A stretch of 64,000 nt of DNA from assembly GCA_965233165.1 (NCBI GenBank), contig CBDDRX010000102.1, positions 8,776 to 72,775 of the forward strand, read 5' to 3'. How positions within the stretch are numbered: the stretch's first letter is position 1; each line of letters begins with the position of its first letter. This document shows, piece after piece, positions 1 through 35,622 of this stretch. The stretch comes from an uncultured bacterium. GTDB lineage: Bacteria > Pseudomonadota > Gammaproteobacteria > Burkholderiales > SG8-39. Under the pieces are notes generated by a model that had not been told where the DNA came from, did not search any database, and saw only the letters and a program-made list of their open reading frames with translations. The position numbers and the translations under genes are program-made.

Positions 1-67
1 TGGCACTCGTCCTTGATCGCTTCCTTTCGGCGCCACCGAGCGCCTAACACTCTTACCGAGAGATCCG

Positions 68-1528
68 ATGAAAACCGAAATTCCTTCCGCGCTTCCCGTT
101 GCCGTCATCGGCGGTGGTCCCGTCGGCCTCGCAGCCGCTGCCCACCTTGCCGAACGTGAAATCCCGTTTATCGTGTTCGAGGCGGGCAAATCCGTCGGCG
201 AAAACATCGCCGGCTATGGCTACGTACGCCTCTTCTCACCGTGGCGATTCAATATGGATCGCGCGGCCGTGCGCCTGTTGCAAGCCGATGGCTGGAAGGC
301 TCCTCGCCCGGATGATCTGCCGACCGCAGGCGAAGTGGTGCGGGATTACCTGGCTCCGCTGTCGCGGAGTCCTCGGCTATCAAAGCACATCCGCCTCGGG
401 GCGCGGATCATCGCGATTTCACGGGCGAACCATGACAAGGTGAAAACCGCAGGCCGCGAATCTGCGCCGTTCATCGTCCAAGCCGAGGAGGAAGGACGCA
501 TCACGGAATACTCCGCGCGTGCCGTGCTCGATGCGTCGGGGACGTGGAATCAGCCCAACCCGATCGGCGCCCATGGACTGCCGGCTATCGGCGAGCGCGA
601 GAACGCCGGACGCATCGCCTATGGCATGCCGGATATCTTGCGGGGGTCGCGGAATCGCTATGCCGGCCGCAAGGTCCTTGTGGTTGGCGCGGGACATTCT
701 GCGGCCGGGAACCTGCTTTCGCTTGCCACGCTCGCCCGCGAGGTTCCCGGCACACACATCGCATGGGCAGTTCGCGGAAAGGACATGCGCCGGCTTTTCG
801 GTGGCGGCGAGAACGACGGCCTGGCGGCGCGCGGCGCGCTCGGTACCGAGCTGCGGCGCTTGGTGGAGAAGGGTTCGTTGGAGATCCATACGGGCTTCCG
901 CACCAGCCGCATCGAGGCAGCCGGCCACCAGTTGCGCATCGTCGCCGAGGATCCGACATTGCCCGCAATCGAGGACGTGGACGAAGTGATCGCCGCTACG
1001 GGATGTCGTCCCGACCTTTCACTGAGCAGAGAACTGCGCGTACGGAACGACGAGTGGCTTGAAAGCACCGAAGCCCTCGCGCCGCTTATCGACCCCAATG
1101 TCCATTCGTGCGGCACCGTGCGGCCGCATGGTCATAGGGAGCTCAAGCATCCGGAGTCCGGTTTCTATGCGATCGGCGCCAAGGCTTACGGCCGAGCGCC
1201 GAACTTCCTGATGGCGACCGGATACGAGCAAGCCCGCTCGGTGGTGGCTGCGCTCGCGGGCGACATGGTGGCTGCGGACGACGTCCAGCTGGAATTGCCC
1301 GAGACCGGAGTTTGTTCTACGGACCTACTTGTCGGGGCCGAGGCGGCCGTGGCCAGCGCATGCTGCGGCGGTCCGGCGAAGACTGATGCGAGCGCCTGCT
1401 GTGTCCTGGACGAGGAAAAGAAAGCCGAAGGGGAGGCGGGATGCGGCTGCTCGACGCCGACGCCTGCGCCAAAGGTCCGCGAGCCGATCAAGATCGAAAC
1501 TGCGGAAAAGTCTGGCTGCTGCGGCTGA
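68..1528 (+). CDS. FAD/NAD(P)-dependent oxidoreductase (flavin monooxygenase-like) with Cys-rich C-terminal tail; family often found in arsenic-resistance clusters
   Basis: GGGPVG FAD-binding and GAGHSA NAD(P)-binding motifs; LIDPNVHSCGTV and YGRAPNFLMATGYEQ motifs; tail ACCGG..ACC..GCGC..GCCG. Confidence 0.85.
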   Translation: MKTEIPSALPVAVIGGGPVGLAAAAHLAEREIPFIVFEAGKSVGENIAGYGYVRLFSPWRFNMDRAAVRLLQADGWKAPRPDDLPTAGEVVRDYLAPLSRSPRLSKHIRLGARIIAISRANHDKVKTAGRESAPFIVQAEEEGRITEYSARAVLDASGTWNQPNPIGAHGLPAIGERENAGRIAYGMPDILRGSRNRYAGRKVLVVGAGHSAAGNLLSLATLAREVPGTHIAWAVRGKDMRRLFGGGENDGLAARGALGTELRRLVEKGSLEIHTGFRTSRIEAAGHQLRIVAEDPTLPAIEDVDEVIAATGCRPDLSLSRELRVRNDEWLESTEALAPLIDPNVHSCGTVRPHGHRELKHPESGFYAIGAKAYGRAPNFLMATGYEQARSVVAALAGDMVAADDVQLELPETGVCSTDLLVGAEAAVASACCGGPAKTDASACCVLDEEKKAEGEAGCGCSTPTPAPKVREPIKIETAEKSGCCG

Positions 1529-1578
1529 CACGGCGAACCCGCTGATCCACGGCCGTCCCAGGTCGTCCAGCGCCGAAG

Positions 1579-1672
1579 TGGGGGTAGCATTGGGGGTAGC
1601 GGTGGCCTGGTATGAAGTGTCGCCGCTACTTCAGTTACTTACGGAATTTCCCGGCGGACTCACTCTCCGCCA
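1579..1672 (+). mobile_element. Probable right end (att) of an integrative element targeting a tRNA-Ser 3' end
   Basis: Direct repeat TGGGGGTAGC at 1579-1588 and 1591-1600 (arm-site-like); IHF-like TCAGTTACTTA at 1631-1641; CTCTCCGCCA at 1663-1672 resembles a tRNA-Ser 3' end. Confidence 0.6.
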
Positions 1673-1758
1673 GCCACTACCCTATCTCCGCGGACGTAGT
1701 ACGTACTCGATTTTCAATTCGACAAGGGCGATCCTTCGCCCGGAGTTCAGAGTGACGT

Positions 1759-2142
1759 TCACGACGTTCCGGCTTTGCGTGCGAGGCGGCTCATATAGAG
1801 CTTCGCTAGGACTGTCGCGGCCTTGGCGTAGATCCCCGGGCACTTGCTCTCTCGCGGACCGGCAACGTTAAGCGTTCTGACCCGATGCCGCACGAGCCAC
1901 GCTCGGAAAGCGCCGGTGTCGAGACGTTTGTCGAGTTGCTGGATGTACAGGGGCTTGGCGTGGATCTCGCGCGCGAGGCGCGCAGTGCGCATCGTGCCTC
2001 CGTCCAGGCGACCGCGATTGATGATCAAGGTGCCATCCGAGTCGCGCACATTCCAGTTGGTACGCTGCCCATAGTCTCGGGAGGTAGTTTCCTTTAGGCG
2101 ATAGCGTTTGGGCAGGGCACTGATTCCCACCTTTTCGAGCAA
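1759..2142 (-). pseudogene. 5'-truncated putative molybdenum-carrier (SLOG-family) protein
   Basis: RTNWNVRDSDGTLI, GGT and LNVAGPRES motifs are present; the usual N-terminal SGGQTGAD...GGWCP segment is absent. Confidence 0.65.
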
Positions 2143-2317
2143 TTTCGGCCACGTCCCCGGCCGCCTCGAAGCTCAGCACGCCATTGCTGAAGGCCAACAA
2201 AGGCCTCGGGAGCTTTCTTCGCTGCACTGATTGCCGCAGCTTATCTATGTGTCCACGCTTCCGTGATAGCCTTGCTGAGGTCCTAAAAATTGCAGTCGCC
2301 GGTTCGGAGGGGAAGGC

Positions 2318-5300
2318 GTGCTGGCCAGCTATGACCCGTGGGTGGTTAGTCTCTCGGTCGTCATCGCCGTCTTTGCTTCGTATACCGCGCTCGATCTTGC
2401 CTCTCGCGTAACGGCAGCAAGCCGCCGCGCCGCGACCCTTTGGATTCTCGGCGGCGCCTTCTCGATGGGTATCGGGATCTGGGCGATGCATTTCGTCGGC
2501 ATGCTGGCGTATCAACTGCCGATTGCGCTTGCCTACGATGTCCCCATCACCGTGCTCTCGATGGTGCCGGCGATCGGAATTTCCGCGCTCGCTTTGTTCG
2601 TCATCCGGCAACGCAGCACGCGCGTATTGAGTCTTGTCGTGGCTGGCATCCTCATGGGCATGGGCATCGTCGCCATGCATTACACCGGCATGGCGGCGAT
2701 GCGCATGCAACCGGCAATCGAGTACAGCCCCGGGCTGTTCGCGCTTTCCGTAGTGATCGCTATTGTGGCGGCGACCGCGGCGCTGTGGATCGCCGGCATC
2801 TTCCATTCCGGGGAAACCGGCGCCAAAGTGATTTACCAGAAGCTCGGAGGCGCGCTCGTCATGGGGCTCGCGATTTCGGGCATGCATTACACCGGCATGG
2901 CGGCGGCCAACGTGGCGCCCGGCAGCATCTGCCTTGTCACCCCGTACGGCGTGGCGCCGCACTGGCTCGCCGTGCTGGTCGGCGCAGGCACCTTCGTAAT
3001 CCTGTCCGTCACGCTGCTCGTGTCCGTGTTCGATGCACGGTTCGCCCAGCAAGGGCAGAAGATGCTCGCCGACCTGAGGGCGGTGCAGACGTTTCTCAGC
3101 TCGATTGTCGAAAACATGCCGAACATGGTTTTCGTCAAGGAGGCTGTGGACCTTCGCTTCGTGCATTTCAACCGGGCAGGCGAGCGCCTCACCGGATACA
3201 GCCGGGACCTGATCATCGGCAAGAATGACTACGACTTGTTTCCCAGGGAGCAGGCCGACTTTTTCGTCGGCAGAGATCGCGAGGTGCTCGCCACCCGGGA
3301 CGAGCTGGTCGTCGTCGAAGAACCCATTAGCCGCGCGGACGGCACGACTCGGCTGCTTCGGACTGTAAAGCTTTCGATCGAGGACGAGCAAGGCAGGCCA
3401 AAGTACCTGCTCGGAATTTCCGAGGACATAACGGATCGCAGGCGCGCCGAAGAGCAGCTGCGCATCGCGGCCCGGGCATTCGAGAATACCGCAGACGGCG
3501 TGGTCATCTATGACGCGCAGCGGCGCATCGATTCGGTAAACAAGTCGTTCACCACGATTACCGGCTATCAGGAGCACGAGGTGGTCGGCAAGCACGCTGA
3601 TTTCTTCCGCTCTGCCCAGCATGACGACGCTTTCTACCGCGACGTCGACAGCGTTGTTGAGCAAAACGGGCGCTGGCAGGGCGAGATGACGCTGCGCCGA
3701 AAGAGCGGCGAAATCTTTCCTGCACTGTCCAGCATCAGCGCGGTAAGCGACGAACGGGGCGTCACAACAAACTACGTCACGGTGTTCAACGACATTTCGA
3801 GCTTCAAGGAGTATGAGGCGAAGCTCGAATTCATCGCACGCCACGACTCTTTGACCGGACTGCCGAATCGCGCATTTTTCCAGGAACGGTTCAGGCTGGC
3901 GCTTGCAAAGGCTCGCCGCCACAACGTCGCGGTCGTACTGCTATTCATCGATCTCGACCAGTTCAAGACGATCAACGACTCTCTGGGACACCAGGTGGGC
4001 GATGAGCTGCTCCAGGCGGTGGCGACTCGTCTGCAGACCTGCGTGAGAGAAACCGACTTGGTCGCCCGGCTAGGAGGCGACGAGTTCACGATCATGGTCG
4101 ACGATCTTAACAACGCACAGCATGCCGGGAAGATCGCGGAGAAGCTATTAGGCGCGCTGGCCATTCCCATCCAGGTTCGCGAACACAACCTCGTCATCGC
4201 GGCCAGCATTGGCATCAGCTGCTATCCGCAGGACGGCCCGGACGCCGAAACGTTGCTCAAGAACGCCGACGCGGCGATGTACGCGGCCAAGCAGGCGGGG
4301 CGCAGTACGTTCAGGTTCTTCGAGCCGCAAATGAACGAACAGGTGATGAAGCGCGTGCAGATGGAAGCGTTGATGCGCCGGGCCCTCGAGCGCGGCGAAT
4401 TCCTGCTGCATTACCAGCCCAAGGTCGACATCGCGACCGGCGCCATCCACGGCGTCGAAGCACTCCTGCGCTGGGCGCATCCGGATCGTGGGCTCGTCTC
4501 CCCGGCCGAGTTCATTCCGATTCTCGAGGAGACCGGCCTCATTGTCCCCGTGGGCGAGTGGGTGACGCGGGAGGCCTGCCGGCAAATCAAGGCATGGCAG
4601 CAAAGTGGCTTGAAGGTGCCGCCGGTCGCGGTGAACCTGTCAGCGCGCCAGTTTCAGCAGAAGGACCTGGAAAGGAGCGTGAGCGACATTCTCAGGGAGA
4701 CGGGAGTCGCCCCGGAGCTGCTGCAGTTCGAAATCACCGAGTCGATGCTGATGAACGATCCCGAAGCAGCCGAGCGGACGCTGCGCGCCCTGAAAGCAGC
4801 CGGCGTAAAACTGTCCATCGACGATTTCGGCACGGGCTATTCCAGCCTCGCGTATCTGCGGCGATTCCCCTTGGACATGCTTAAGATCGACCGCACGTTC
4901 ATCAAGGACATGGTCGGCAACCCGGACGGCGCGGCGATCACGGTTGCAATCATCAATCTCGCCCACAGCCTCGGCCTGAAGGTCGTCGCCGAGGGCGTGG
5001 AGACTGAAGCGCAGGTCAATTTGCTGGCACTGCATTCGTGCGACGAGCTGCAAGGCTATTACTTTTCCAAGCCGGTAGCAGCCGCTGCTCTCGCAGAGAT
5101 GCTTCGCGAAGAGCGCCGGCTGGTGCGTTCCCAGAACTGGGCGAACGCAAGACCCGCCGTGCTGCTGCTCGACGACAGCGAGAGCGATCTTCGTCTGCTC
5201 CAGCGCACCTTGCAATCCGAAAACTTTGAAATCTTCACCGCTACCAATGCAGCGCAGGCATTTGCTTTGCTCGCGAGCCATCCCGTGAGCGTGGTGGTTT

Positions 5301-5545
5301 CCGACCAGCGGATGCCCGGCATGGACGGCACCGAATTCCTGGCAAAGCTGAGGAAGCTCCATCCGCATGCGCTGCGCATCGCCATCAGCGGCGCAGACGA
5401 TGCCCGGATCGTGGCCGATGCCGTCAACGAGGCGGGAATCTACAAATTCCTGTCGAAGGACTGGAACGAGGAGCGCCTGCGCAGCGAGGTGCTCGAAGCC
5501 TATCGGCGCGCGTCGACAAGCAGCCCAAAATTGGCGGGCCGCTAG
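2318..5545 (+). CDS. MHYT-PAS-PAS-GGDEF-EAL-REC c-di-GMP signalling protein
   Basis: MHFVGM/MHYTGM repeats, two PAS-like regions, LGGDEF, VEALLRW, DDFGTGYSS, C-terminal receiver (VVSDQRMPGMDG); GTG start after GGAGG. Confidence 0.92.
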   Translation: MLASYDPWVVSLSVVIAVFASYTALDLASRVTAASRRAATLWILGGAFSMGIGIWAMHFVGMLAYQLPIALAYDVPITVLSMVPAIGISALALFVIRQRSTRVLSLVVAGILMGMGIVAMHYTGMAAMRMQPAIEYSPGLFALSVVIAIVAATAALWIAGIFHSGETGAKVIYQKLGGALVMGLAISGMHYTGMAAANVAPGSICLVTPYGVAPHWLAVLVGAGTFVILSVTLLVSVFDARFAQQGQKMLADLRAVQTFLSSIVENMPNMVFVKEAVDLRFVHFNRAGERLTGYSRDLIIGKNDYDLFPREQADFFVGRDREVLATRDELVVVEEPISRADGTTRLLRTVKLSIEDEQGRPKYLLGISEDITDRRRAEEQLRIAARAFENTADGVVIYDAQRRIDSVNKSFTTITGYQEHEVVGKHADFFRSAQHDDAFYRDVDSVVEQNGRWQGEMTLRRKSGEIFPALSSISAVSDERGVTTNYVTVFNDISSFKEYEAKLEFIARHDSLTGLPNRAFFQERFRLALAKARRHNVAVVLLFIDLDQFKTINDSLGHQVGDELLQAVATRLQTCVRETDLVARLGGDEFTIMVDDLNNAQHAGKIAEKLLGALAIPIQVREHNLVIAASIGISCYPQDGPDAETLLKNADAAMYAAKQAGRSTFRFFEPQMNEQVMKRVQMEALMRRALERGEFLLHYQPKVDIATGAIHGVEALLRWAHPDRGLVSPAEFIPILEETGLIVPVGEWVTREACRQIKAWQQSGLKVPPVAVNLSARQFQQKDLERSVSDILRETGVAPELLQFEITESMLMNDPEAAERTLRALKAAGVKLSIDDFGTGYSSLAYLRRFPLDMLKIDRTFIKDMVGNPDGAAITVAIINLAHSLGLKVVAEGVETEAQVNLLALHSCDELQGYYFSKPVAAAALAEMLREERRLVRSQNWANARPAVLLLDDSESDLRLLQRTLQSENFEIFTATNAAQAFALLASHPVSVVVSDQRMPGMDGTEFLAKLRKLHPHALRIAISGADDARIVADAVNEAGIYKFLSKDWNEERLRSEVLEAYRRASTSSPKLAGR

Positions 5546-6321
5546 GCTGTCGCACCTTTGCCCGGGACGCTGCTCGGTTGTCCCGGTGCAGCGTCTCTAG
5601 GTGGGTCTCCCCCGGCTGACATCAGCGATGCGGCAATCCTTCCGAGCGTCGCCATCGCGCGCTCGAGGCGCGGCGACCAGGGATGGCCATAGTTCAGGCG
5701 GATGTAGTTGCGGCATTCCCGCCGGCACGAAAAGATGGGGCCGGGGGCGGTGCTGATACCGCTGGCCATCGCCCGGCGATGCAGCTCGAGCGCGCTCACC
5801 TGGGGCGGCAGCTCCACCCACACGAAGTAGCCGCCGTTCGGCCGCGTGGCGCGCGTGCCGGGCGGAAAGTGGGCGGCGAGCGAGCGCAGCAGCTCGTCGC
5901 GGCCGTTTTCCAGCCGGCGGCGCAGCGTGCGCAGGTAATGGTCAAAGCCACCGTGCCTCAGATAGTCGGCGATGCCCGCCTGGGCGCAGATGTTGGTCCC
6001 GAGCGTGGTCACGAGCTTGACGCGCTGCAGGGCCGGGGCGAAGCGCCCGGCCGCGCACCAGCCCACCCGATATCCGGGCGCCAGGCACTTGGAGAAGGAA
6101 GAGCAGTGCAGCACCAGGCCCTTGCGGTCGAACGCCTTCGCCGGACGCGGCTTGTCGGCGGTGAAGTAAAGCTCCTGGTACACGTCGTCCTCGATGAGCG
6201 GCACGTCATGGCGGGCGAGGAGCTTCACGAGCTCGGCCTTCTTCTCATCCGGCATGGTCGAGCCGAGGGGGTTCTGGAAGCTGGTCATCAGATAGCAGGC
6301 GGCGATCCGATGCTTCTTCAG
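5542..6321 (-). pseudogene. 3' half of a MocR/GntR-family PLP-dependent aminotransferase-like regulator; N-terminus missing
   Basis: FQNPLG, IEDDVY, SSFSKCLAPGYRVGW motifs; similarity ends abruptly at ~6321 against an EAL fragment; no wHTH region. Confidence 0.8.
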
Positions 6322-6674
6322 ATGCCGGCATCCGCATCGCGATCGACGATTTCGGCACCGGCTATTCGAGCCTCGCCTACCTCACCCGCTTCCCCGTGGC
6401 GACGCTGAAGATCGACCGCTCGTTCGTCGCCCACGCCTTGAGCGACACCGCCTCCGCCACGATCGTGCGCACGATCATCGAGATGGCCAGGACGCTTCGC
6501 TTCACGGTCGTCGGGGAGGGCGTGGAAACCGAAGCACAGGCGCAATTCCTGCGCGGCCTGGGCTGCGAGCAGGCGCAGGGCTACCTCTTTGCCAGGCCCA
6601 TGCCCGCCGGCGAGCTGGCCGCGCTCCTCGAGCCCAAGGCAACAGTGGCTGCCCGCCGACTCAGGTTTTCATGA
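6321..6674 (+). pseudogene. EAL phosphodiesterase C-terminal fragment (copy 1)
   Basis: Reads DAGIRIAIDDFGTGYSSLAYL...GEGVET...QGYLF; no EAL motif and no proper start. Confidence 0.85.
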
Positions 6675-6833
6675 TTCTCCTGCCGGCCTTGCGATTCTTG
6701 ATGAGACCGCGTCCGCCGGCTGTCTTCGCGGCACGCTTCTTCGCCCCAAAGATCGTCTAAGCGCGCCATCGCACAGAGCGGCGCGCGACGGCGCCGGTAT
6801 AAGCGGAAGCCGTCTACTCCAAAGGGGAAAGAA

Positions 6834-7181
6834 ATGAAAAGAGGACTTGTCGCAGTGCTCTGCCGCTTTATCGCCGTCGCGCTGATCATGCTGCCCTTCC
6901 AGACCGCGCAGGCGAGCCTGATCGGCACCGACCAGGCATTGTCGCCCGCGAGCGTCCAGGCCGATCGGGACCTTCTCGCCGGCTTCCTGGGCCGTTCACA
7001 GGTCGCCGCCGAGCTCCAGGCCTTCGGCGTCGACGTGCAGGTCGCGCGGGACCGGGTCGCCGCGATGACCGACGAGGAAGTGCGCTCGCTCGCGGGCCAG
7101 GTCGAAACGGCGCCAGCCGGCGGCGTGATCGTCCTCATCCTGGTCATCTTCCTGGTCTGGTTCGTCGCCTTTCGCCGCTAG
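6834..7181 (+). CDS. PA2779-like exported/membrane protein
   Basis: Signal peptide ending AQA; ARDRVAAMTDEE motif; PAGG followed by a hydrophobic C-terminal segment; purine-rich RBS. Confidence 0.75.
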   Translation: MKRGLVAVLCRFIAVALIMLPFQTAQASLIGTDQALSPASVQADRDLLAGFLGRSQVAAELQAFGVDVQVARDRVAAMTDEEVRSLAGQVETAPAGGVIVLILVIFLVWFVAFRR

Positions 7182-7201
7182 ACCCGGCGGCAGGAGCAAG
7201 G

Positions 7202-7232
7202 AAACCGCTAGGTGCCCGCCTAGCGGTTTTTC
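7202..7232 (+). terminator. Intrinsic terminator between convergent genes
   Basis: AAACCGCTAGG-tgcccg-CCTAGCGGTTT followed by more T. Confidence 0.7.
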
Positions 7233-7438
7233 ACCCCCACGAGCAGAAACACGCCGAGCGCGAGCGAGGCGATGCTGAGCGCAATGGGGATGAACACCGT
7301 CTCCTTCTCCTTCACCTGAAGCACGACCGGCCCGAGGTTTGCGGTATGCGTCTCGCTCGTGTAGGAGAAGCCGCCGTAGGCGAGGCCGAGGGCACCCGCG
7401 GCGATGAGGAGGATTCCGACGATTCTGTAGGGGTTCAT
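7220..7438 (-). CDS. Small two-TM membrane protein (DUF3185-like)
   Basis: GILLIAAGALGLAYGGFSYT..LGP..KEKETV.IP pattern with two hydrophobic helices. Confidence 0.7.
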   Translation of the reverse strand: MNPYRIVGILLIAAGALGLAYGGFSYTSETHTANLGPVVLQVKEKETVFIPIALSIASLALGVFLLVGVKNR

Positions 7439-7494
7439 GCCGCGATGCTGCCAGCCCGGGCCGCCTCGTTCTATGCGTTGTCGCGCACAGCAGG

Positions 7495-7727
7495 CGCGCG
7501 GCGGATCTTCACGGGTATTCGACGGGGCGGGCGGGGCGTTCCGGGAGCGGGATGAGCTCGGTCGGGGACGGGCGGGAAGCGGCCTGCCAGTCGTCGGCGG
7601 CCTGGTCGATGCGTGCCTTGCTGCTCGAGACGAAGTTCCACCACAGGAAGCGCGGCCCGACCGGCTCGCCGCCGAGCAGCATCAGCCGGCTGTTGCCGGC
7701 CGCCGAGATCCGCTCTTCCGAGCCGGC
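7495..7727 (-). pseudogene. Duplicated 3' end of the pirin gene plus the first codons of the GNAT gene
   Basis: Near-identical to 9383-9624 apart from 5-bp and 4-bp deletions and a few substitutions. Confidence 0.9.
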
Positions 7728-8107
7728 AGGACCCGGAGGACGCCGTCCGTGTCCTGCGGGCCCTGAGTGACGCCGGCATCCGCATCGCGATCGACGATTT
7801 CGGCACCGGCTATTCGAGCCTCGCCTACCTCACCCGCTTCCCCGTGGCGACGCTGAAGATCGACCGCTCGTTCGTCGCCCACGCCTTGAGCGACGCGGCC
7901 TCCGCGACGATCGTGCGCACGATCATCGAGATGGCCAGGACGCTTCGCTTCACGGTCGTCGGGGAGGGCGTGGAAACCCAAGCGCAGGCGAGATTCCTGC
8001 GCCGCCTCGGCTGCGAGCAGGCGCAGGGCTACTTCTTCGGAAAGCCCATGCCCGCCGACGAGCTGGCCGCGCTTCTCGAGCCGCTGGAGAAAATCGCCGC
8101 CCGGTAG
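7727..8107 (+). pseudogene. EAL phosphodiesterase C-terminal fragment (copy 2)
   Basis: QDPEDAVRVLRALSDAGIRIAIDDFGTGYSS...; 7769-8082 aligns without gaps to 6321-6634. Confidence 0.85.
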
Positions 8108-8291
8108 CCCGGCTGACCCAGCGGAACCCGGAGCTCCCTGCCCGGTCCTGGTCCCATATCGAGACAGGACAAAGTACCCCTGCAGGGCGGGAGGGCTGTC
8201 CTATATACCGAGCAGCGTTATAGGCGCACGCTGCTATGGGAGACGATCGCAACGCTGTCACCATGCTTCGAGCCGATTTCAAGGGGGATAC

Positions 8292-8924
8292 ATGAACTAC
8301 GCACTCCGAGTCATCGTGGCATCGCTCTTCGGCCTTCTTTTGGCGGGAGCGGCGCAAGCAAACGCGATCTATTCATACAGCGGAAACGCTTTCGATGCCT
8401 TCCGAGACGACGCGTTTCCTGCTGGAACGTACGACGCATCCATGCGGGTAACCGGATGGTTCGAGGTCTCTAGCGCGTTGGAGGCCAATCGCTCATTGTC
8501 GATCCTGACGCCGACGTCGTTCTCCTTTTCGGACGGTCGCAATGTATTGAACGATGGCAATGTCACCGCCTTGACCTCGGCAACCACGTCGTTTCTCCAG
8601 ATCGCAACCGACTCCACAGGCGCCATCTCGAGCTGGTATGTATCGCTCTTCAGCTTCTCAACCGGCTCGATAATTACGGCGAAAAGTGACCTGTCCTTGT
8701 GGGGTCCGGCCCAAGGTACGGGCGATTTCGCGTCCACAGAACCAAACTGGTTTTCCCCGACGACGCAGCGCGACGACGGCATAGTCTTCGGCAATGCCGG
8801 ATCTTGGACATCTACAGCTGTTGCTGCACCGATTCCTGAGCCGGAAACTTACGCCATGCTGCTGGCGGGGTTGGCAATCCTGACCTTGCACGCCCGCAGA
8901 AGGCGAAAAGCAGCTGACCATTGA
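8292..8924 (+). CDS. PEP-CTERM sorting-domain surface protein
   Basis: Signal peptide, Ser/Thr-rich body, C-terminal IPEPETYAMLLAGL-TM-RRRRK. Confidence 0.9.
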   Translation: MNYALRVIVASLFGLLLAGAAQANAIYSYSGNAFDAFRDDAFPAGTYDASMRVTGWFEVSSALEANRSLSILTPTSFSFSDGRNVLNDGNVTALTSATTSFLQIATDSTGAISSWYVSLFSFSTGSIITAKSDLSLWGPAQGTGDFASTEPNWFSPTTQRDDGIVFGNAGSWTSTAVAAPIPEPETYAMLLAGLAILTLHARRRRKAADH

Positions 8925-8938
8925 GGCAACGAGCGGAC

Positions 8939-9400
8939 TCACGCTCCGCCGCGCAAGACCAGTTTGAGTCCCTCGTGACTCGCGGAGAATCCCAGCCGCT
9001 CGTAGAAGCGCACGGCGTCGACGCGCTGCTTGTCGCTGGTGAGCTGGACGAGCCCGCAGCCTTTCTCGCCCGCGCGGGCGATCGCGTGACGCACCAGCTG
9101 CTCGCCGACGCGGTGGCCGCGCTCCTTCGAGGACACGCGCACGCCCTCGATCTGGGCGCGCCACATGCCCTGGCGGCTCAGGCCGGGAAGAAAGGTGAGC
9201 TGCAGCGTGCCGATGATCCGCCCGTCCAGCTCGGCGACGAGGAGCTCGTGGTTCGGGTCGGCGGCGATCGCTTCGAAGGCAAGAAGGTACGTTTCCGGGA
9301 GCGGGTCTTCGTTGCGCTCGCGCTTCGCGCCCAGCATGTCGTCGGCCAGGAGCGCGACGATCGCCGGGAGGTCGGCGCGTTCCGCGCGCCGGATCTTCAC
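8939..9400 (-). CDS. GNAT family N-acetyltransferase
   Basis: [37 protein letters not shown] start overlaps the pirin stop. Confidence 0.88.
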
Positions 9401-10284
9401 GGGTAGTCGACGGGGCGGGCGGGGCGCTCCGGGAGCGGGATGAGCTCGGTCTCGCCGGGGACGGGCGGGAAGCGGCCGGCCTGCCAGTCGTCGGCGGCCT
9501 GGTCGATGCGCGCCTTGCTGCTCGAGACGAAGTTCCACCACAGGAAGCGCGGCCCGACCGGCTCGCCGCCGAGCAGCATCAGCCGGCTGTTGCCGGCCGC
9601 CGAGATCCGTTCTTCCGCGCCGGCGGAGAACACGAGCATCTGCCCGGCGCGGTACGGCTTGTCGGCGTACAGCACGTCGCCTTCGGCCACGTAGGCGGCG
9701 CGCTCGGCGTACTCGGGCTTCAGGACGAAGGAGCGGCCGGCCTTGAGGTCGAGCTCCGCGTAGAACATCTCGGAGTACGTCTCCACCGGCGACTGGGCGC
9801 CGAAGAGCTCGCCGACGATCATGCGGGTGCGTGCGCCGGCATCCTCGATCACCGGCAAGTCCTGCGCGCCGAAATGGGCGAAGGCGGGGGCGGTTTCCTC
9901 GTGCTCGCGCGGCAGCGCCACCCAGACCTGGATGCCGAAGGCGCGCGAGCCGGTCGTGCGCAGCTCGGCGGGCGTGCGCTCGGAATGGACGATGCCGCGC
10001 CCGGCGGTCATCCAGTTGACCTCTCCGGGGCGGATCGCCTGCACCGTGCCGAGGCTGTCGCGGTGCATGATCACGCCCTCGAAGAGGTAGGTGACCGTCG
10101 CGAGGCCGATGTGCGGGTGCGGACGCACCGTTAGGCCCTGGTTCGGGTGGAAGGCAGCCGGGCCCATCTGGTCGAAGAAGACGAACGGGCCGACCATGCG
10201 CCGCTCGGCGGCCGGCAGGGCGCGGCGGACCATGAACCCGTCGCCCAGGTCGCGGCTCTTCGGAACGAGGACTGCCTCAAGCAT
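9397..10284 (-). CDS. Pirin family protein
   Basis: [36 protein letters not shown]. Confidence 0.95.
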
Positions 10285-11955
10285 TCAGGGGCGTATTTTG
10301 CGCCTGGGCTTGATGTCGCTGGCAAGAATCGAGACGGCGAGGCCGATGCCGCCGGCCGCGGCGAAGAGGAAGAGCAGAATCGCCAGGCCGGGGTAGCCGA
10401 ACAGGCGGAACTCGGTCTCGACCGGCATGAGCAGCGCCGCGCCGACGATCAGGGCGGCGAGCACCAGCCCGAGGGTGATCCGGTTCGCCACCTTCTGCAG
10501 GCCCTCGAGCAGGCGCGCCTCGTCGATCGAGTCGACGCGGATGCGCAGCTGGTTGCCGGCGAGCTGGTCGAGGATGCGGTTCACGCGCCCGGGCAGGTGC
10601 TGGACGAAATTCTTCGCGTCCACCGCGGCGCTGAAGATCGAGCCGAGCGAGAGGTCGCGCAGCATCTGCTTCTCGGTGATCTCGGCGGCGTGGCGGCGGA
10701 TCGCCTCGTTGGGATCGAAATGCGGCGAGAGCGTGAGCCCCACTTCGTCGAGGTTGAGGAGGGTCTTGCCGATCATCGCCAGCTCGGGTGGCAGCCGCAC
10801 GCCGTTCTCCGCCGCGGCCTTGAGGAGGAAGAGGACCGCGCGCCCGACCTGCGGGCGCTGCGCCGCGAGCTGCCCGTGCTGCGCCAGGACATCCGCGACG
10901 GCGCGCTGGAATCCGCCCGGATCCGCGCCTTCGCGGCACTCGCCGACAAGCAGGAGGATCTTCGCCGCCTCGTCGGCGCGGTTCTCGCTCACGGCGAGCA
11001 GGAGCTGGAGCAGGCGCTCCTGCAGCCCGGGGGAGACGCGGGCGACCATTCCCAGGTCGATGAGCGCGATGCGGCCCCCGGCGAGGAAGACGTTGCCCGG
11101 ATGCGGGTCGGCGTGGAACAGGCCGTCGCGCAGCATTTGCTTGAGATAGGCGCGGAAGAGCGCGTCGGCGAGCCGCTCGCCGTCGATCTCCATCCGCGCG
11201 AGCGGCCCGAGCCGGGTGACCTTGGTGCCGGCAACGAACTCCATGGTGAGCACGCGCGAGGTGCTGAGCGCTTGCACCGGCCCGGGCACGCAGATCTCCT
11301 CGATCTCGCGCAGGTTGCCGCCGATCGCGACGAGATGCATCGCCTCCTGACGGAAGTCGAGCTCGCGCAGGAGCGATTTGCGGAACGCCTCGAACACGAG
11401 GGCGACGTCGAAGCGGCGTGCGGCCTCCGTGTGGCCGTCCAGGAAGGCCGCCACTTGGCCCATCGCCTCCAGGTCGGCGAGCACCTGGTCGCGCACGCCC
11501 GGGCGCTGGACCTTGATCGCCACGGCGCGGCCGTCGCGCAGCTCGGCGTAGTGCACCTGCGCGATGGAGGCGGCGGCGAGCGGCTCGCGCTCGATGCGGC
11601 GGAAGGCGGCGAGGCGCGGCCCGAGCTCCTCGTCGAGGATCTTCTCGATCTGCGCGAACGGGATCGGCGCGACGCCGTCCTGGAGCCGCTTCAGCGCCTC
11701 GGCGTAGGCCGGCGGGACGATGTCGGGCCGCGTGGACAGGAGCTGCCCGAGCTTGATGAAGGTCGGCCCGAGCTTCTCGAGGTCGTCGGCGAGCTGCGCC
11801 GCTTCGGGCGCGGCGGCCGCCACCTGCGCTGAATCGTCGGGCAGCAGCTCCGCGAGGCCGGCGCCCTTGACGAGGTCGCTGCGCCCGTACTTGAGCAGGA
11901 GGAGCGCGACGTCCTTGTAGCGCGCCAGGTGCTCCGGCTTGAGGGAGATGGACAC
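10285..11955 (-). CDS. ABC1/AarF/UbiB family atypical kinase
   Basis: LGPTFIKLGQLLSTRPD, AASIAQVH, VAIKVQRPG, FHADPHPGN, DLGMV; C-terminal TMs; start uncertain (11955 or 11979). Confidence 0.92.
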   Translation of the reverse strand: MSISLKPEHLARYKDVALLLLKYGRSDLVKGAGLAELLPDDSAQVAAAAPEAAQLADDLEKLGPTFIKLGQLLSTRPDIVPPAYAEALKRLQDGVAPIPFAQIEKILDEELGPRLAAFRRIEREPLAAASIAQVHYAELRDGRAVAIKVQRPGVRDQVLADLEAMGQVAAFLDGHTEAARRFDVALVFEAFRKSLLRELDFRQEAMHLVAIGGNLREIEEICVPGPVQALSTSRVLTMEFVAGTKVTRLGPLARMEIDGERLADALFRAYLKQMLRDGLFHADPHPGNVFLAGGRIALIDLGMVARVSPGLQERLLQLLLAVSENRADEAAKILLLVGECREGADPGGFQRAVADVLAQHGQLAAQRPQVGRAVLFLLKAAAENGVRLPPELAMIGKTLLNLDEVGLTLSPHFDPNEAIRRHAAEITEKQMLRDLSLGSIFSAAVDAKNFVQHLPGRVNRILDQLAGNQLRIRVDSIDEARLLEGLQKVANRITLGLVLAALIVGAALLMPVETEFRLFGYPGLAILLFLFAAAGGIGLAVSILASDIKPRRKIRP

Positions 11956-12018
11956 GATGCACCGAACAGCAATCCGCATGCCCGTCTGCGCTTAACAATC
12001 GGCTGCAAGCATGGGTCG

Positions 12019-13296
12019 ATGCGCGCACGCTCATGGCACAAGTACCTGCTGGTCGCGGCGGCGATGGGGCTCGCCGTGCTCGTCGTCGCCAACCTGGCGC
12101 TCGGCGACAAGCGCATCGATACCCATGTCGAGCACCTCTACCCGGTCGCCTCGCCGCAGTTCCGGCGCGCCGTGGGCGTGATGCTTGGCCCGGCGCTCGT
12201 GGAGGGCAACCACGCGCGGGCGCTGGTCAACGGGCGCGAAATCTTCCCCGAGATGCTGAAGGCGATCCGCGCCGCGCAGCAGACGATCACCTTCGAGATG
12301 TACATTTTCGCCGAGGGCGAGGTCGGCGAGGCGTTCACGCAGGCGTTCGAGGAGCGCGCGCGCGCCGGCGTGAAGGTCCACTTCCTCTACGACGCGATCG
12401 GCAGCGAGAAGATCGACAGGAAGTACCTCGAGCGCCTGGAGGCGGCGGGAGTGGAGATCGCGGCGTACAACCCGGTGCGCTGGTACACGCTCGCGCAGAT
12501 GAACAACCGGACCCATCGCAAGCTGATGGTGGTCGACGGGCGCGTCGGCTACACCGGCGGCGTGGGCATCCAGGACCAGTGGCAGGGCGACGCCGAGAAC
12601 CCGGAGCGCTGGCGCGACACCCACTTCCGGGTCGACGGGCCGGCCGCGGCGCAGATGCAGGCTGCCTTCATGGAGAACTGGATCGAGACCACGGGCGAGG
12701 TGCTGCACGGCGAGGGGTACTTCCCGCGCATCGAGCCGGCGGGGAGCCAGCTCGCCCAGGTCGTCGTCAGCTCCCCCGGCGGCGGCGGGGAAAGCATGCA
12801 GCTGCTCTACCTGCTGTCGATCGCGGCGGCGGAAAAGTCGATCCTGCTCGCCAACGCCTACTTCGTGCCCGACAACGTGGAGATCAAGACGCTGGCGGCA
12901 TCCGCCCGGCGCGGCGTGAAGGTGCAGGTGATCGTGCCCGGGCCGATCATCGACAACAAGTTCGTGCGCCGGGCCTCGCGCGCGAGCTGGGGCGACCTCC
13001 TGCGCGCCGGGGTCGAGATCTACGAGTACGAGCCGACCATGTTCCACGTCAAGTCGCTGGTGGTCGACGACCTGTGGGTCACGGTGGGCTCGACCAACTT
13101 CGACACCCGGTCGTTCAGCACGAACGACGAGGCGAACCTGAACGTGCTCGACGGCCGGTTCGCCGCCATGCAGCGGCGCATCTTCGAGGCCGACCTGAAG
13201 CGCTCGCGCCGGGTCACGCTCCAGGAGTGGGAGGCCCGGCCCTGGACCCAGAAGGTCCTGGACACGGCGTGGGACGCCCTCAGCTCGCAGCTTTAG
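12019..13296 (+). CDS. cls: Cardiolipin synthase / phospholipase D family protein
   Basis: Two HKD motifs (HRKLMVVD, HVKSLVVD) and GSTNFDTRS. Confidence 0.88.
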   Translation: MRARSWHKYLLVAAAMGLAVLVVANLALGDKRIDTHVEHLYPVASPQFRRAVGVMLGPALVEGNHARALVNGREIFPEMLKAIRAAQQTITFEMYIFAEGEVGEAFTQAFEERARAGVKVHFLYDAIGSEKIDRKYLERLEAAGVEIAAYNPVRWYTLAQMNNRTHRKLMVVDGRVGYTGGVGIQDQWQGDAENPERWRDTHFRVDGPAAAQMQAAFMENWIETTGEVLHGEGYFPRIEPAGSQLAQVVVSSPGGGGESMQLLYLLSIAAAEKSILLANAYFVPDNVEIKTLAASARRGVKVQVIVPGPIIDNKFVRRASRASWGDLLRAGVEIYEYEPTMFHVKSLVVDDLWVTVGSTNFDTRSFSTNDEANLNVLDGRFAAMQRRIFEADLKRSRRVTLQEWEARPWTQKVLDTAWDALSSQL

Positions 13297-13322
13297 CCGC
13301 GAACCCGCCGGGCCGCTACGAT

Positions 13323-13988
13323 TTACGGGGGGGGGGCGGTCATTCCGGTGGAGAGGCGCAGCTCCGGAAGCGATTTGTCGACCAGCTCCCGCATCCTGTG
13401 CAGCGCATCCTCCAGCACCGTCCCCGTGGCGCCCATCAGGCCGATGTTGCCCACCTTGAGCGCGTCGAGCGCCGTGAGCGCGGTGGCGATCAGCTTGCGA
13501 TGCTCGTCGGCAAGCGTGCCCATCCGGGCATGGAGATCTTGGTCTGCCCGGATGGTGAGTGCCTCGTCGTGGTGCTCTGCGTAGGCAGTCACGGCGTCGG
13601 CGATGGCGCTGTCGAGCAGGCGGTTGAAGGTGTGGAACTCCGTGACGGTGACCGGCGCCGCTCTTTCTCTCGCCAGCTCGGTGATCGACTGGCAGATGTC
13701 GCCGTACCCGTGTACGACCTGTTCGACGCTGTAGCCCTTCGCGAGGAGCGCCTTGCCGTGCAGGGCGGCGGTCCGGCTGTTTTCCGCCGCGGCCGGCGAC
13801 TTGGCCGCGGCGTCCTGACCGGAACTGCTTTCCTCGCAGCGAAGAGCTTCCACGAGCTGATCGAGGAACAGCGGGACGCCATGCTCGAGCTCCGTCTCGG
13901 TCACCGGCGGCGAAGACCTCCTGGCCACCTTGCCGCGGCAGCGGCGGATCAGGTCTTCCCGATTGTCGGTTAGAAATTCGTGCAGCAT
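13323..13988 (-). CDS. RsbRD-N-like sensor protein with a degenerate HisKA-like helix; no HATPase domain
   Basis: GVPLFLDQL, HG..L...GYSVEQVVHGYGDICQSITELA, FNRLLDSAIADAV; ends after a DHp-like region. Confidence 0.65.
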   Translation of the reverse strand: MLHEFLTDNREDLIRRCRGKVARRSSPPVTETELEHGVPLFLDQLVEALRCEESSSGQDAAAKSPAAAENSRTAALHGKALLAKGYSVEQVVHGYGDICQSITELARERAAPVTVTEFHTFNRLLDSAIADAVTAYAEHHDEALTIRADQDLHARMGTLADEHRKLIATALTALDALKVGNIGLMGATGTVLEDALHRMRELVDKSLPELRLSTGMTAPPP

Positions 13989-14073
13989 CCGCTCAGGGTA
14001 CTCGCGCTTCGCTCCCACCTCTGTCCGCGGTCGGACACAGAGCGGGCGGATCGGAATTTTTTCGTTTTCTACC

Positions 14074-14532
14074 CTATGAGGTGATGTAGTCGCGCAGTGC
14101 CTGCGCCTCCTGCGCGGACTCGTCCAGCTTCACCTTCACGAGGTCGCCGATCGAGACCAGCCCGAGCAGCTTGCCCTGCTCGACCACCGGCAGGTGCCGG
14201 AAGCGCCGCTCGGTCATCAGCCCGAGGGCTTCATCAACCGACATCGACAAGCGCCCGACGACCACGCTGCAGGTCATCCGCGCCTCGACCGGCAGCGTCT
14301 CGAAGTCGCGGTCGCCTTCGGCATACAGGCGTATCACGTCACGCTCGGTGAAAATGCCCACCGGGCATCCCGGGGCGTCGGGCACCATCACGGCGCCGAC
14401 CTTCTCGGCGTGCATGACGTGGATTGCCTCGGCGATGCTGGATTTCGCGGGTACCGTCACCAGGCGGTGACCCCGGGCTGCTAGAACTTCTTGCAATTTC
14501 AATGGCGTCTCCGGTTGACCGCGGGCCTGCAT
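14074..14532 (-). CDS. CBS domain pair protein
   Basis: GIFTERD and MTERRFRHLPVV..GLVSIGDLVK; start may be TTG at 14502. Confidence 0.9.
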   Translation of the reverse strand: MQARGQPETPLKLQEVLAARGHRLVTVPAKSSIAEAIHVMHAEKVGAVMVPDAPGCPVGIFTERDVIRLYAEGDRDFETLPVEARMTCSVVVGRLSMSVDEALGLMTERRFRHLPVVEQGKLLGLVSIGDLVKVKLDESAQEAQALRDYITS

Positions 14533-14632
14533 CGAATCAAGGGCGCAAAGCTCTGGGACACGGCGATGGACACGTCAGTTCTCAGCTTTAGCACGGCTTT
14601 AGGTAATATTGCTCCCCAGAGGAGGAGCACCC

Positions 14633-15892
14633 ATGAAGATCCGTTCCGTCGGCGCCGCCCTTGTGGCCGCCGCATCCGTCGCGTTCGCAGGCGCCGCTTT
14701 CGCGCAGGCCGCGAAGGGCAAGCCGATCAAGATCGCCTACATCGACCCGCTGTCCGGGGCGTTCGCCAACGTCGGCGAAGCCGGGCTGCACCACTTCCGC
14801 GCCATGGCCGCGGAGGTCAACGCGAAAGGCGGCCTGAACGGCCGGCCGATCGAGGTGGTGGGCTTCGACAACAAGGTGAGCCCGCAGGAATCGCTGAACC
14901 AGCTCAAGCGCGTCATCGACGACGGCATCCAGTACATCACGCAGGGCAACGGCTCCGCGGTGGCCGGCGCGCTCATCGAGGCGGTGAACCGCCACAACGA
15001 GCGCAACCCGGGCAAGGAGATCCTGTACCTGAACTACGCCGCGGTGGATCCCGCCTTCACCAACGAGAAGTGCTCGTTCTGGCACTTCCGCTTCGACGCC
15101 AACAGCGACATGAAGATGGAGTCGCTCACGACCTGGATGGCGCAGAGCAAGAACATCAAGAAGGTCTACCTGATCAACCAGGACTACTCGTTCGGCCACG
15201 CGGTGAAGAAGGCGGCGCGCGAGATGCTCGGGCGCAAGCGCCCCGACATCGAGATCGTCGGCGACGACCTGCACCCGCTGGGCAAGGTGACCGACTTCTC
15301 GCCCTACGTGGCGAAGATGAAGCAGGCCGGCGCCGACACGGTGATCACGGGCAACTGGGGCCAGGACATGGCGCTGCTCATCAAGGCGGCGAAGGACGCC
15401 GGCCTGAACGCCGCGTTCTACACCTACTACGGCGGCGGCCTGGGCGCGCTCTCGACGATCGGCGAGTCCGGGGTCGGCAACCTGAAGCAGATCACCGAGT
15501 GGCACGAGAACGTGCCGACGAAGATCGAGAAGTGGAGCCAGGACTTCGAGAAGAAGTACAAGGTCGACTTCTACTACCTGCGCGTGCGCACCATGATGCT
15601 GATGCTCGCCGAGGCGTCGAAGAAGGCGAAGTCGGTCGAGCCGAAGGCGATCGGCTACGCGCTCGAGGGCATGCGCTACCAGAGCGACACGGGGGAGGTG
15701 GAGATGCGCAAGCAGGACCACCAGCTCATCCAGCCGCTCTACCTGTCCACCGTGCAGAAGACCGCGGCGAAGGGCGGACCGAAGGACGTCAAGTACGACG
15801 TGGAGAACACCGGCCTCGGGTTCAGGACCGACGCGAAGCTCGACGCGTTCACGTCGGCGGGATTCACCTCCTGCAACATGAAGCGGCCGTAG
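14633..15892 (+). CDS. Branched-chain amino acid-type ABC transporter substrate-binding protein
   Basis: Signal peptide, IDPLSGAFA, YLINQDYSFG, VITGNWG; GGAGG RBS. Confidence 0.9.
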   Translation: MKIRSVGAALVAAASVAFAGAAFAQAAKGKPIKIAYIDPLSGAFANVGEAGLHHFRAMAAEVNAKGGLNGRPIEVVGFDNKVSPQESLNQLKRVIDDGIQYITQGNGSAVAGALIEAVNRHNERNPGKEILYLNYAAVDPAFTNEKCSFWHFRFDANSDMKMESLTTWMAQSKNIKKVYLINQDYSFGHAVKKAAREMLGRKRPDIEIVGDDLHPLGKVTDFSPYVAKMKQAGADTVITGNWGQDMALLIKAAKDAGLNAAFYTYYGGGLGALSTIGESGVGNLKQITEWHENVPTKIEKWSQDFEKKYKVDFYYLRVRTMMLMLAEASKKAKSVEPKAIGYALEGMRYQSDTGEVEMRKQDHQLIQPLYLSTVQKTAAKGGPKDVKYDVENTGLGFRTDAKLDAFTSAGFTSCNMKRP

Positions 15893-28909: not shown

Positions 28910-28990
28910 GGCAAATAGCCGGCCAGATAATCGGCAAATAGCCGCTTGCGTAATAGTCAAATGGACGGTATCCTGATCGGCAAATGGCCG
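28910..28990 (+). repeat. Four 12-bp quasi-palindromic repeats at 23-bp period
   Basis: GGCAAATAGCCG at 28910 and 28933, GTCAAATGGACG at 28956, GGCAAATGGCCG at 28979. Confidence 0.9.
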
Positions 28991-34953: not shown

Positions 34954-35043
34954 GCTTCAGGTTCGGCGCGCAGTTCCTTGTTTTTTCCGGGGATTGCCAA
35001 GCCCGGGGAGGATAGGCAGAATCGCGTAGCACGATTTTTGCCT

Positions 35044-35622
35044 ATGGACCGCCCGCTCATTCTTTCCCTCGACGCCCACGGTGTTCCGCACCGGTGGATC
35101 AGCTGGCAGCAGGCCTGCTTCTACTACGCGAAAAACCTCGTCGCGTGGACGCTCGGCGACGAGACCTTCACCTACTACGGCGGGATCTCGCGCGTCACCG
35201 GCGAGCGCTCGAGCATCACCGCGCACTCGATCATCGCGATCAAGGGCAAGGCGCTCGCGGCGAAGGGCTTCAACCAGGTGCCGCCGCTCAACAACCGGGA
35301 GCTGTTCCGCCGCGACCGGCACATGTGCGGCTACTGCGGCGGGGAGTTCAACTACTTCCGGCTGACGCGCGACCACATCACGCCGCTTTCCCGCGGCGGC
35401 CGCGACACCTGGATGAACGTCGTGACCGCGTGCCGCCACTGCAACGGGCACAAGCGCAACCGCCTGCCCGAGGAGTCCGGCATGCAGCTCCTCTACGCTC
35501 CGTACGTGCCGAACAAGGCCGAGTACCTGATCCTCACGAACCGGCGCATCCTCTCCGACCAGATGGAGTTCCTGAAGCAGCACGTCGCGTCCCACTCGCG
35601 CCTGGTCCTGTCGCCTGCCTGA
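35044..35622 (+). CDS. HNH endonuclease
   Basis: LFRRDRHMCGYCG, TRDHITPLSRGG, NVVTACRHCN. Confidence 0.92.
   Translation: MDRPLILSLDAHGVPHRWISWQQACFYYAKNLVAWTLGDETFTYYGGISRVTGERSSITAHSIIAIKGKALAAKGFNQVPPLNNRELFRRDRHMCGYCGGEFNYFRLTRDHITPLSRGGRDTWMNVVTACRHCNGHKRNRLPEESGMQLLYAPYVPNKAEYLILTNRRILSDQMEFLKQHVASHSRLVLSPA

What the first reader, a model, noticed from the sequence alone, without database searches (positions are those of the whole stretch)
1673..10284. Polarised stack of gene-fragment-bounded segments next to a tRNA att site
Seen: three junctions (~2120, 6321, 7727) each cut off the 5' part of a minus-strand gene (Mo-carrier, MocR, pirin). Two of them fuse directly to the 3' part of a plus-strand EAL gene, at breakpoints only 42 bp apart within that gene. 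The order is [Mo-carrier'] | [MHYT-GGDEF-EAL-REC, MocR'] | ['EAL, PA2779, small TM, pirin'] | ['EAL, PEP-CTERM, GNAT, intact pirin]. No transposase, integron attC or target duplication is visible. Inference: alleles of the same locus from related strains were added one after another, anchored by homology or integrase on the tRNA side and joined illegitimately on the other. This would be an integron-like, ordered accretion of cargo without cassettes.
Basis: partly seen in the sequence, partly recalled or inferred. Interest (0 to 1): 0.75.

Follow-up and report, generated by a model that had tools for sequence, protein, structure and literature searches.

The report
Stacked gene fragments beside tRNA island
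Next to a tRNA insertion site in a soil bacterium's draft genome lie three abrupt joins between broken genes and two diverged copies of the same gene ends, which likely record DNA from close relatives being added piece by piece, a known way such islands grow, though no reads confirm the joins.

Summary
The anatomy is confirmed. 1653-1672 is an att-type copy of the tRNA-Ser(UGA) 3' end; that tRNA, on contig C60, is followed by a tyrosine integrase. Three joins (~2120, 6321, 7727) cut cpYpsA, MocR and pirin. Two EAL 3' stubs (94.6% identical) start 42 bp apart, and a pirin 3' end is duplicated (93.8%). The EAL copies differ as selected alleles do (pN/pS 0.34, P=0.014) and share a 123-bp identical block, so unit 6321-7727 likely came from a related strain through one crossover plus one end-joined junction. 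The site is a genus-wide variable spot. Not supported: a fixed order of addition, anchoring on the tRNA side, att- or attC-like joins, and EAL-pirin synteny in relatives (the sister species has other, intact cargo). No read or second genome spans a junction, and the source sample was strain-mixed, so an assembly chimera remains possible (~0.17). Ordered, cassette-free accretion is already proposed for tycheposon islands and Vibrio T6SS arrays. Verdict: a clear but single example of a known kind.

The parts
1653..1672 (+). att-type partial copy of the tRNA-Ser(UGA) 3' end (likely attR of the metal/arsenic island to its left)
   Evidence: 15 bp (1659-1673) identical to the tRNA-Ser(UGA) end on C60; integrase ORF follows that tRNA; same 20-mer with <=1 mismatch in 8 of 70 genus genomes
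1759..2120 (-). cpYpsA ('Mo-carrier') 3' fragment; junction J1 at ~2120
   Evidence: PF12694 model 38-144/145; homology to genus relatives starts at residues encoded near 2118
2318..5545 (+). intact MHYT-PAS-PAS-GGDEF-EAL-REC gene, lower GC3 (0.79)
   Evidence: four short contigs of run X1 match it with 1-7 differences
5542..6321 (-). MocR 3' half; junction J2 at 6320/6321
   Evidence: PF00155 149-349/361; best full-length relative 84%, 468 aa
6321..6674 (+). EAL 3' stub, copy A
   Evidence: PF00563 145-236; 94.6% to copy B
6324..6446 (+). 123-bp block identical to 7772-7894; candidate crossover or conversion tract
   Evidence: P~0.004 under random placement of the differences
6663..6744 (-). 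remnant of a small Lys/Arg-rich ORF
   Evidence: 84% to C4:6176-6257; a run-X1 contig skips 6689-6750
6834..7181 (+). DUF6627 (PA2779-like) gene, intact
   Evidence: PF20332
7220..7438 (-). small two-helix membrane protein gene (helices judged by eye), intact
   Evidence: ORF; no Pfam match; DNA relatives in several genus genomes
7495..7727 (-). GNAT 5' stub (~6 codons) plus pirin 3' fragment with 5-bp and 4-bp deletions; junction J3 at 7726/7727
   Evidence: 93.8% to 9383-9624
7727..8107 (+). EAL 3' stub, copy B, starting 42 bp further upstream in the parent gene
   Evidence: PF00563 132-236; homologue alignment
8292..8924 (+). PEP-CTERM protein gene, low GC (0.57)
8939..9400 (-). GNAT gene, intact, overlapping the pirin stop
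   Evidence: same overlap in G069
9397..10284 (-). pirin gene, intact; start of the block shared with sister species G069

Best explanation
This is the tRNA-proximal end of a variable island that likely grew by adding DNA from closely related strains, each piece likely entering through one homology-dependent crossover and one end-joined, nearly homology-free junction. For the 1.4-kb unit 6321-7727 the simplest inferred route is this: a fragment of a relative's version of the locus, ending in EAL and in pirin, was closed into a circle (making J3) and integrated by a single crossover in the 123-bp identical EAL block or in the pirin 3' end. That leaves the two partial duplications seen. J1 and J2 would be one-sided (HFIR-type) insertions or plain deletions between divergent genes. 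Shown: junctions, duplications, allele-like divergence, variable spot. Inferred: donor strains, circle, crossover site, joining enzyme (two Ku genes are present), order of events.
For: EAL A/B: 8.5 synonymous and 8.5 non-synonymous differences over 79.8 and 232.2 sites, pN/pS 0.34, binomial P=0.014; both residues at all 8 changed positions occur among 120 homologues. Neither stub has a stop or frameshift. The identical 123-bp block has P~0.004. The pirin copy has two deletions in a motif that is intact in copy B and in G069, as expected for decay of a real fragment. The spot is variable: a trypsin-like gene (mostly followed by DUF58 and VWA) lies 25-11,354 bp downstream of tRNA-Ser(UGA) or its att in 17 of 43 oriented genus loci, versus ~18.2 kb here. 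G069 shares the distal block (83% GNAT-cls, 91% SBP-permease) but has different proximal cargo. Close relatives were in the sample: 28 contig-end overlaps at 81-99%, median 89%. Two Ku genes and DprA are present. Precedent: circle plus single crossover gave 109-950 bp partial duplications in 56 of 60 clones (PMC3240628, section 12).
Against: No read, contig or protein outside this assembly spans a junction. No intact parent allele was found; the best full-length EAL relative is 79%. No EAL-pirin synteny in 28 pirin loci. No comparable allelic tandem pair in 47 relative loci, 567 kb; the 6 repeat hits there were tandem-like or paralogous repeats and a tRNA copy. Estimated microhomology is short: ~1-2 bp at J2 and 2-4 bp at J3, from homologues only, at or below the 3-10 bp usual for HFIR (PMC3240628). 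comEC was not found in this 93%-complete MAG, though present in 32 of 32 relatives. The 42-bp coincidence is not explained: about 2-4% if both breaks were random in a 2.3-4.8 kb gene, about 10% if J2 hit an existing ~380-bp stub (arithmetic).
Confidence: 0.5

Rival explanations
1. The tRNA-Ser(UGA) integrative element is the vehicle. It excises imprecisely with downstream host DNA from a donor strain, integrates at the recipient's tRNA and later leaves, so donor flanks pile up next to the tRNA (tycheposon or specialised-transduction model).
For: att copy at 1653-1672 and an integrase beside the tRNA. The same att occurs in 8 of 70 relatives. Variability is highest next to the tRNA, as in the model of bioRxiv 2020.12.28.424599 (passages). 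Segment starts lying close together would follow if each segment began just downstream of the att.
Against: No tRNA fragment or att-like core at J1-J3: best matches are at background level. No element remnant between segments. The att 20-mer was found in no viral contig. The first genes after the att or tRNA in relatives had almost all complete domains by eye (82 selected ORFs from 25 loci).
Confidence: 0.2
2. Strain-chimeric assembly: two co-occurring strains each carry one version of the locus, and the assembler joined or mis-phased them through chimeric reads or the identical block.
For: The assembly has 141-bp end overlaps typical of a de Bruijn assembler (recalled) and 28 divergent contig-end overlaps, so strains were mixed. 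Copy identities of 94-95% fall inside that range. There is no independent support for any junction.
Against: A de Bruijn graph cannot create homology-free joins without molecules that carry them (established). Two such joins would have to fall 42 bp apart in one gene and three within 6 kb of an att. The identical block (123 bp) is shorter than k=141, so its phase is resolvable in principle (inference). The joins are interior to the MAG's longest contig. The pirin copy shows decay-type deletions, and no second copy of the missing pirin 5' part is in the MAG.
Confidence: 0.17
3. Purely internal history: a tandem duplication of an EAL-to-pirin interval (J3), complementary loss of cargo from the two copies, and ordinary deletions between divergent genes (J1, J2), with later gene conversion.
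For: J3 has tandem-duplication geometry. The gene order is compatible with one ancestral unit EAL-DUF6627-TM-PEP-GNAT-pirin, and the GNAT stub marks a deletion.
Against: One EAL copy would have been a dead stub from the start and should drift neutrally, yet pN/pS is 0.34 with no stop or indel. EAL copies differ by 5.4%, whereas the pirin-GNAT copies have 6 substitutions in 233 bp. Several extra deletions are needed.
Confidence: 0.1

Closest known systems
tRNA-seeded additive islands with element-borne flanking DNA (tycheposon model; bioRxiv 10.1101/2020.12.28.424599, passages read)
   Same: tRNA-Ser(UGA) seed, tRNA-specific integrase, partial tRNA copy, non-element material accumulating beside the tRNA, highest variability next to the tRNA.
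   Different: No tRNA fragments at the internal joins, no evidence that the element carried these pieces, soil Burkholderiales rather than marine cyanobacteria; tycheposon hallmark genes not tested.
Vibrio cholerae T6SS orphan-immunity arrays by sequential displacement, proposed HFIR (PMC5361080, PMC9711863, passages read)
   Same: Stack of gene remnants from related strains, no cassettes or transposase; the authors already draw the integron parallel.
   Different: No effector-immunity logic and no evident selection to keep old pieces; here the anchor genes are partly duplicated rather than displaced; order not established.
Recircularised linear DNA integrated by single crossover (PMC3240628, passages and section 12 read)
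   Same: Partial duplication of the homologous gene (109-950 bp there; 314 and 242 bp here), with one new junction.
   Different: Laboratory conjugation construct in E. coli; here natural, with two duplicated gene ends and diverged alleles.
HGT hotspots between core genes (PMC5635113, abstract and outline only); NHEJ capture of foreign DNA (PMC6379672, abstract and outline only)
   Same: Rapid gene turnover at one core-flanked spot; Ku genes present and junction homology very short.
   Different: Neither describes this nested allele duplication in the parts I saw; NHEJ involvement here is untested.
Integrons
   Same: Only the idea of stacking; the genome has two integron integrases on other contigs.
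   Different: No integron integrase at the locus, no attC consensus match, and segments are bounded by broken genes, not whole cassettes.

Membership tests
Integron / attC cassette array | IntI gene adjacent to the array | tested here: not met
   TIGR02249 above cut-off only on C4 and C77; no hit on C102
Integron / attC cassette array | attC sites bounding each segment | tested here: inconclusive
   0 candidates in 1600-10400 with a recalled consensus, but also 0 on the two IntI contigs, so no positive control
Integron / attC cassette array | cassettes hold whole genes | tested here: not met
   segments end inside cpYpsA, MocR, EAL and pirin
tRNA-seeded additive island (tycheposon-type flank accretion) | tyrosine integrase beside the target tRNA and a partial tRNA copy | tested here: met
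   C60 and C102 are separate contigs, so their linkage is inferred
tRNA-seeded additive island (tycheposon-type flank accretion) | variability highest next to the tRNA | tested here: met
   between species only:
tRNA-seeded additive island (tycheposon-type flank accretion) | att or tRNA remnants at the joins | tested here: not met
   background-level matches
tRNA-seeded additive island (tycheposon-type flank accretion) | excised element carrying host flank | tested here: inconclusive
   0 viral contigs with the att 20-mer
Tycheposon lineage | hallmark integrase clade and replication modules | not tested
   no phylogeny run
HFIR product | homologous anchor at one end | tested here: inconclusive
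   allelic homology and a 123-bp identical block exist; which side served as anchor is unknown
HFIR product | 3-10 bp microhomology at the illegitimate join | tested here: inconclusive
   ~1-2 bp (J2) and 2-4 bp (J3), estimated from homologues because true parents are missing
HFIR product | insertion coupled to deletion, not duplication, of the anchor | tested here: not met
   for J3 both flanking gene ends are duplicated; J1 and J2 are compatible
HFIR product | natural competence | not testable with these tools
   DprA present; comEC 0 of 1 here, 32 of 32 relatives
Circle plus single-crossover integration | direct partial duplication of the homologous gene around the insert, with one novel junction | tested here: met
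Circle plus single-crossover integration | circular intermediate | not testable with these tools
   needs reads or PCR
IS / transposon | transposase gene in or beside the segments | tested here: not met
   none among the 17 frames scanned in 68-15889; target duplications not searched systematically

The most novel reading that the evidence does not exclude
The locus is an active, cassette-free gene-capture platform: breaks made at the tRNA-Ser(UGA) integrase site are repaired by Ku/LigD end-joining with sister-strain DNA at a fixed hotspot in the EAL gene, building an ordered array. It would be a base-pair-resolved record of flank accretion, so far only hypothesised for tycheposon islands, in soil Betaproteobacteria.
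Probability: 0.1. Interest if true: 0.62.

Novelty: new member of a known kind. Interest (0 to 1): 0.3.

Why it matters
If real, it is a compact example, with readable junctions, of how non-mobile DNA piles up beside an integration tRNA, a process that published models infer but rarely show at base-pair level. It suggests a simple signature for finding such events in strain-resolved data: diverged tandem gene ends with an identical block. It does not reveal a new enzyme or element, it is one unverified assembly, and the cargo shows no evident function of the stacking.

Tried and rejected
Read support: only one run (X1, soil, share 0.06) was offered. Its contigs gave short near-identical pieces of the MHYT and DUF6627 genes but nothing bridging a junction; holes prove nothing. 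Two metagenome pattern scans found 0 loci. The genome scan found 1 locus, L091, titled a Burkholderiales MAG. The att scan of viral contigs found 0. A search for the chimeric J3 reading frame found 0 of 280 candidates at E<=10. Exact look-ups found the stack's proteins only on this contig, except GNAT, which has a 3-member cluster; 3 of 10 and 4 of 8 queries were not in the collection. att-like secondary sites at the joins were rejected. The attC scan was negative without a positive control. Rfam gave one chance-level hit, E=0.35. No similar allelic stacks in 47 relative loci, and few or no cut domains in 82 of 163 candidate ORFs scanned (one erythromycin-esterase match covered only model 200-358 and was not followed up); draft genomes often break at such loci, so this is weak. 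cpYpsA relatives occur in 5 of 70 genomes and MocR DNA relatives in 1 of 70; their tRNA context was not checked. The scan's earlier findings returned nothing. The two original HFIR papers were not held; their microhomology figure is taken from PMC3240628. Literature searches; I make no claim that this exact structure is absent from print. No supplements were read; those of the tycheposon preprint (its Supplementary Fig. 7, elements with host flank) bear on rival 1.
Full report
Setting. The window is G000:C102:8776-72775, in a 3.35-Mb, 161-contig, 68% GC draft genome that is 93% complete. A related locus, L091, is titled a Burkholderiales MAG. There is no tRNA in the window. Bases 1659-1673 equal the 3' end of tRNA-Ser(UGA) on contig C60, and that tRNA is followed by a tyrosine-integrase gene and island-like ORFs. 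Left of the att lie heavy-metal and arsenic genes, named by eye from the translations. The same att 20-mer occurs in 8 of 70 genus genomes. I read 1653-1672 as the attR of an island in tRNA-Ser(UGA); the link between C60 and C102 is inferred.

Observation. cpYpsA lacks model positions 1-37, MocR lacks its N-terminal half (relatives about 460-510 aa), and two EAL stubs cover model 145-236 and 132-236. Self-BLAST gives 94.6% over 314 bp for the EAL stubs and 93.8% over 242 columns for the pirin ends; the EAL breakpoints are 42 bp apart. The pirin copy includes about 6 codons of the overlapping GNAT gene, 6 substitutions and deletions of 5 and 4 bp. Among 6 same-contig repeat hits in the whole MAG, these two are the only interior gene-fragment pairs at kb spacing. 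The strand pattern (3 of 3) is weak evidence by itself.

Alleles, not a fresh duplication. Over EAL codons 2-105 there are 8.5 synonymous and 8.5 non-synonymous differences on 79.8 and 232.2 sites (pN/pS 0.34, binomial P=0.014). At all 8 changed residues both states occur among 120 homologues. The first 123 bp are identical and the remaining differences cluster after them (P~0.004). The pirin sample is too small to test (2 synonymous and 1 non-synonymous in 49 codons, P=0.15). The sample held close relatives: 28 contig-end overlaps at 81-99% identity, median 89%, beside 29 exact ones. This supplies possible donors and also raises the risk of a chimeric assembly.

The locus in relatives. Downstream of tRNA-Ser(UGA) or its att, a trypsin-like gene (mostly with DUF58 and VWA) appears in 17 of 43 oriented loci at 25-11,354 bp; 4 of the 47 loci fetched had no usable att, and several others were short. 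In the window it lies ~18.2 kb from the att. The sister species G069 has the same att, then an intact ABC-transporter operon and enzymes, then GNAT-pirin-ABC1-cls-SBP at 79-92% protein identity, with no EAL gene. None of 28 pirin loci has an EAL gene within ~1.5 kb; 12 have a trypsin-like gene beside pirin. So the spot is a lasting variable site whose tRNA-proximal part turns over, but the EAL-pirin unit is not seen outside this genome; no conspecific genome was available. No allelic tandem pair was found in 47 relative loci (567 kb), and 82 of 163 candidate ORFs near these sites were almost all complete by eye.

Junctions. None resembles the att core more than background. From homologues, the overlap is about 1-2 bp at J2 and 2-4 bp at J3; true parents are missing (best full-length EAL relative 79%; MocR 84%). 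A recalled attC consensus found nothing, without a positive control, although the genome has two integron integrases elsewhere. The genome has two Ku genes (28 of 32 relatives) and DprA. comEC was not found here but is present in 32 of 32 relatives.

Independent support. None. The one run offered had low cover and no bridging contig. It did hold short near-identical pieces of the MHYT and DUF6627 genes, one with a 62-bp skip at 6688-6751, showing that these pieces exist in a near strain elsewhere. Pattern scans and a chimeric-frame search were empty.

Mechanism. Unit 6321-7727 sits between two copies of an EAL end and two copies of a pirin end. That is the product expected when a relative's fragment with ends in EAL and pirin is closed into a circle and integrated by one crossover. 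In E. coli this route gave 109-950 bp partial duplications in 56 of 60 clones (PMC3240628, section 12). Classical HFIR gives a deletion instead, and 3-10 bp microhomology (same paper). A crossover in the EAL block makes unit A the newcomer; a crossover in pirin makes unit B the newcomer and would have replaced a damaged pirin end and GNAT. The sequence cannot tell these apart, so 'polarised, ordered' is not shown. J1 and J2 fit one-sided insertions or deletions between divergent genes. I give this reading 0.5, element-borne flank capture 0.2, assembly chimera 0.17 and internal duplication 0.1.

Comparison with what is known. Accretion of non-element DNA beside integrase-targeted tRNAs, including tRNA-Ser(UGA), with variability highest next to the tRNA, is the published tycheposon island model (bioRxiv 2020.12.28.424599, passages). 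Cassette-free sequential stacking with an explicit integron parallel is published for Vibrio T6SS arrays (PMC5361080 and PMC9711863, passages). Hotspot turnover and NHEJ capture are described in PMC5635113 and PMC6379672 (abstracts and outlines only). The locus works like these. It fails membership of integrons and meets only part of the tycheposon-type and HFIR criteria.

Verdict. A real-looking, unverified, single example of a known kind of island growth; interest 0.3. The boldest reading not excluded, an integrase-site, end-joining capture platform with a fixed EAL hotspot, has probability about 0.1.

Noticed in passing
G000:C4:6823-7764 and G000:C77:4087-5028: Two integron integrases above the TIGR02249 cut-off; my simple attC scan found no cassette sites on either contig.
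   Followed up: partly
window 1-1672 and L001:1-8822: Island end with genes that look like a heavy-metal ATPase, MerR, ArsR, ArsC, an aquaporin-like channel and a flavoprotein (named by eye, except the flavoprotein): an arsenic/metal-resistance cluster.
   Followed up: no
window 6663-6744; G000:C4:6176-6257: Small Lys/Arg-rich ORF (~30 aa) present twice in the genome; the window copy looks truncated, and a near strain in run X1 lacks 62 bp of it.
   Followed up: partly
whole assembly G000: 28 contig ends overlap other contig ends at 81-99% identity: the MAG comes from a strain-mixed sample despite 1.4% stated contamination.
   Followed up: yes
G000 versus 32 genus genomes: comEC is found in all 32 relatives tested but not in this MAG; assembly gap or true loss.
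   Followed up: no
L026-L042 (genus relatives): In 12 of 28 pirin loci the pirin gene lies beside a trypsin-like gene, usually followed by a VWA gene, a different arrangement from the window.
   Followed up: partly
one search hits, e.g. G010:C33, G020:C76, G012:C397, G001:C64, G033:C42: Many genus genomes carry two or more related EAL-domain genes 4-7 kb apart on one contig.
   Followed up: no
window 28957-30228 and 34954-35619: An AAA_14/DUF4143 ATPase and an HNH gene sit among housekeeping and transport genes.
   Followed up: no
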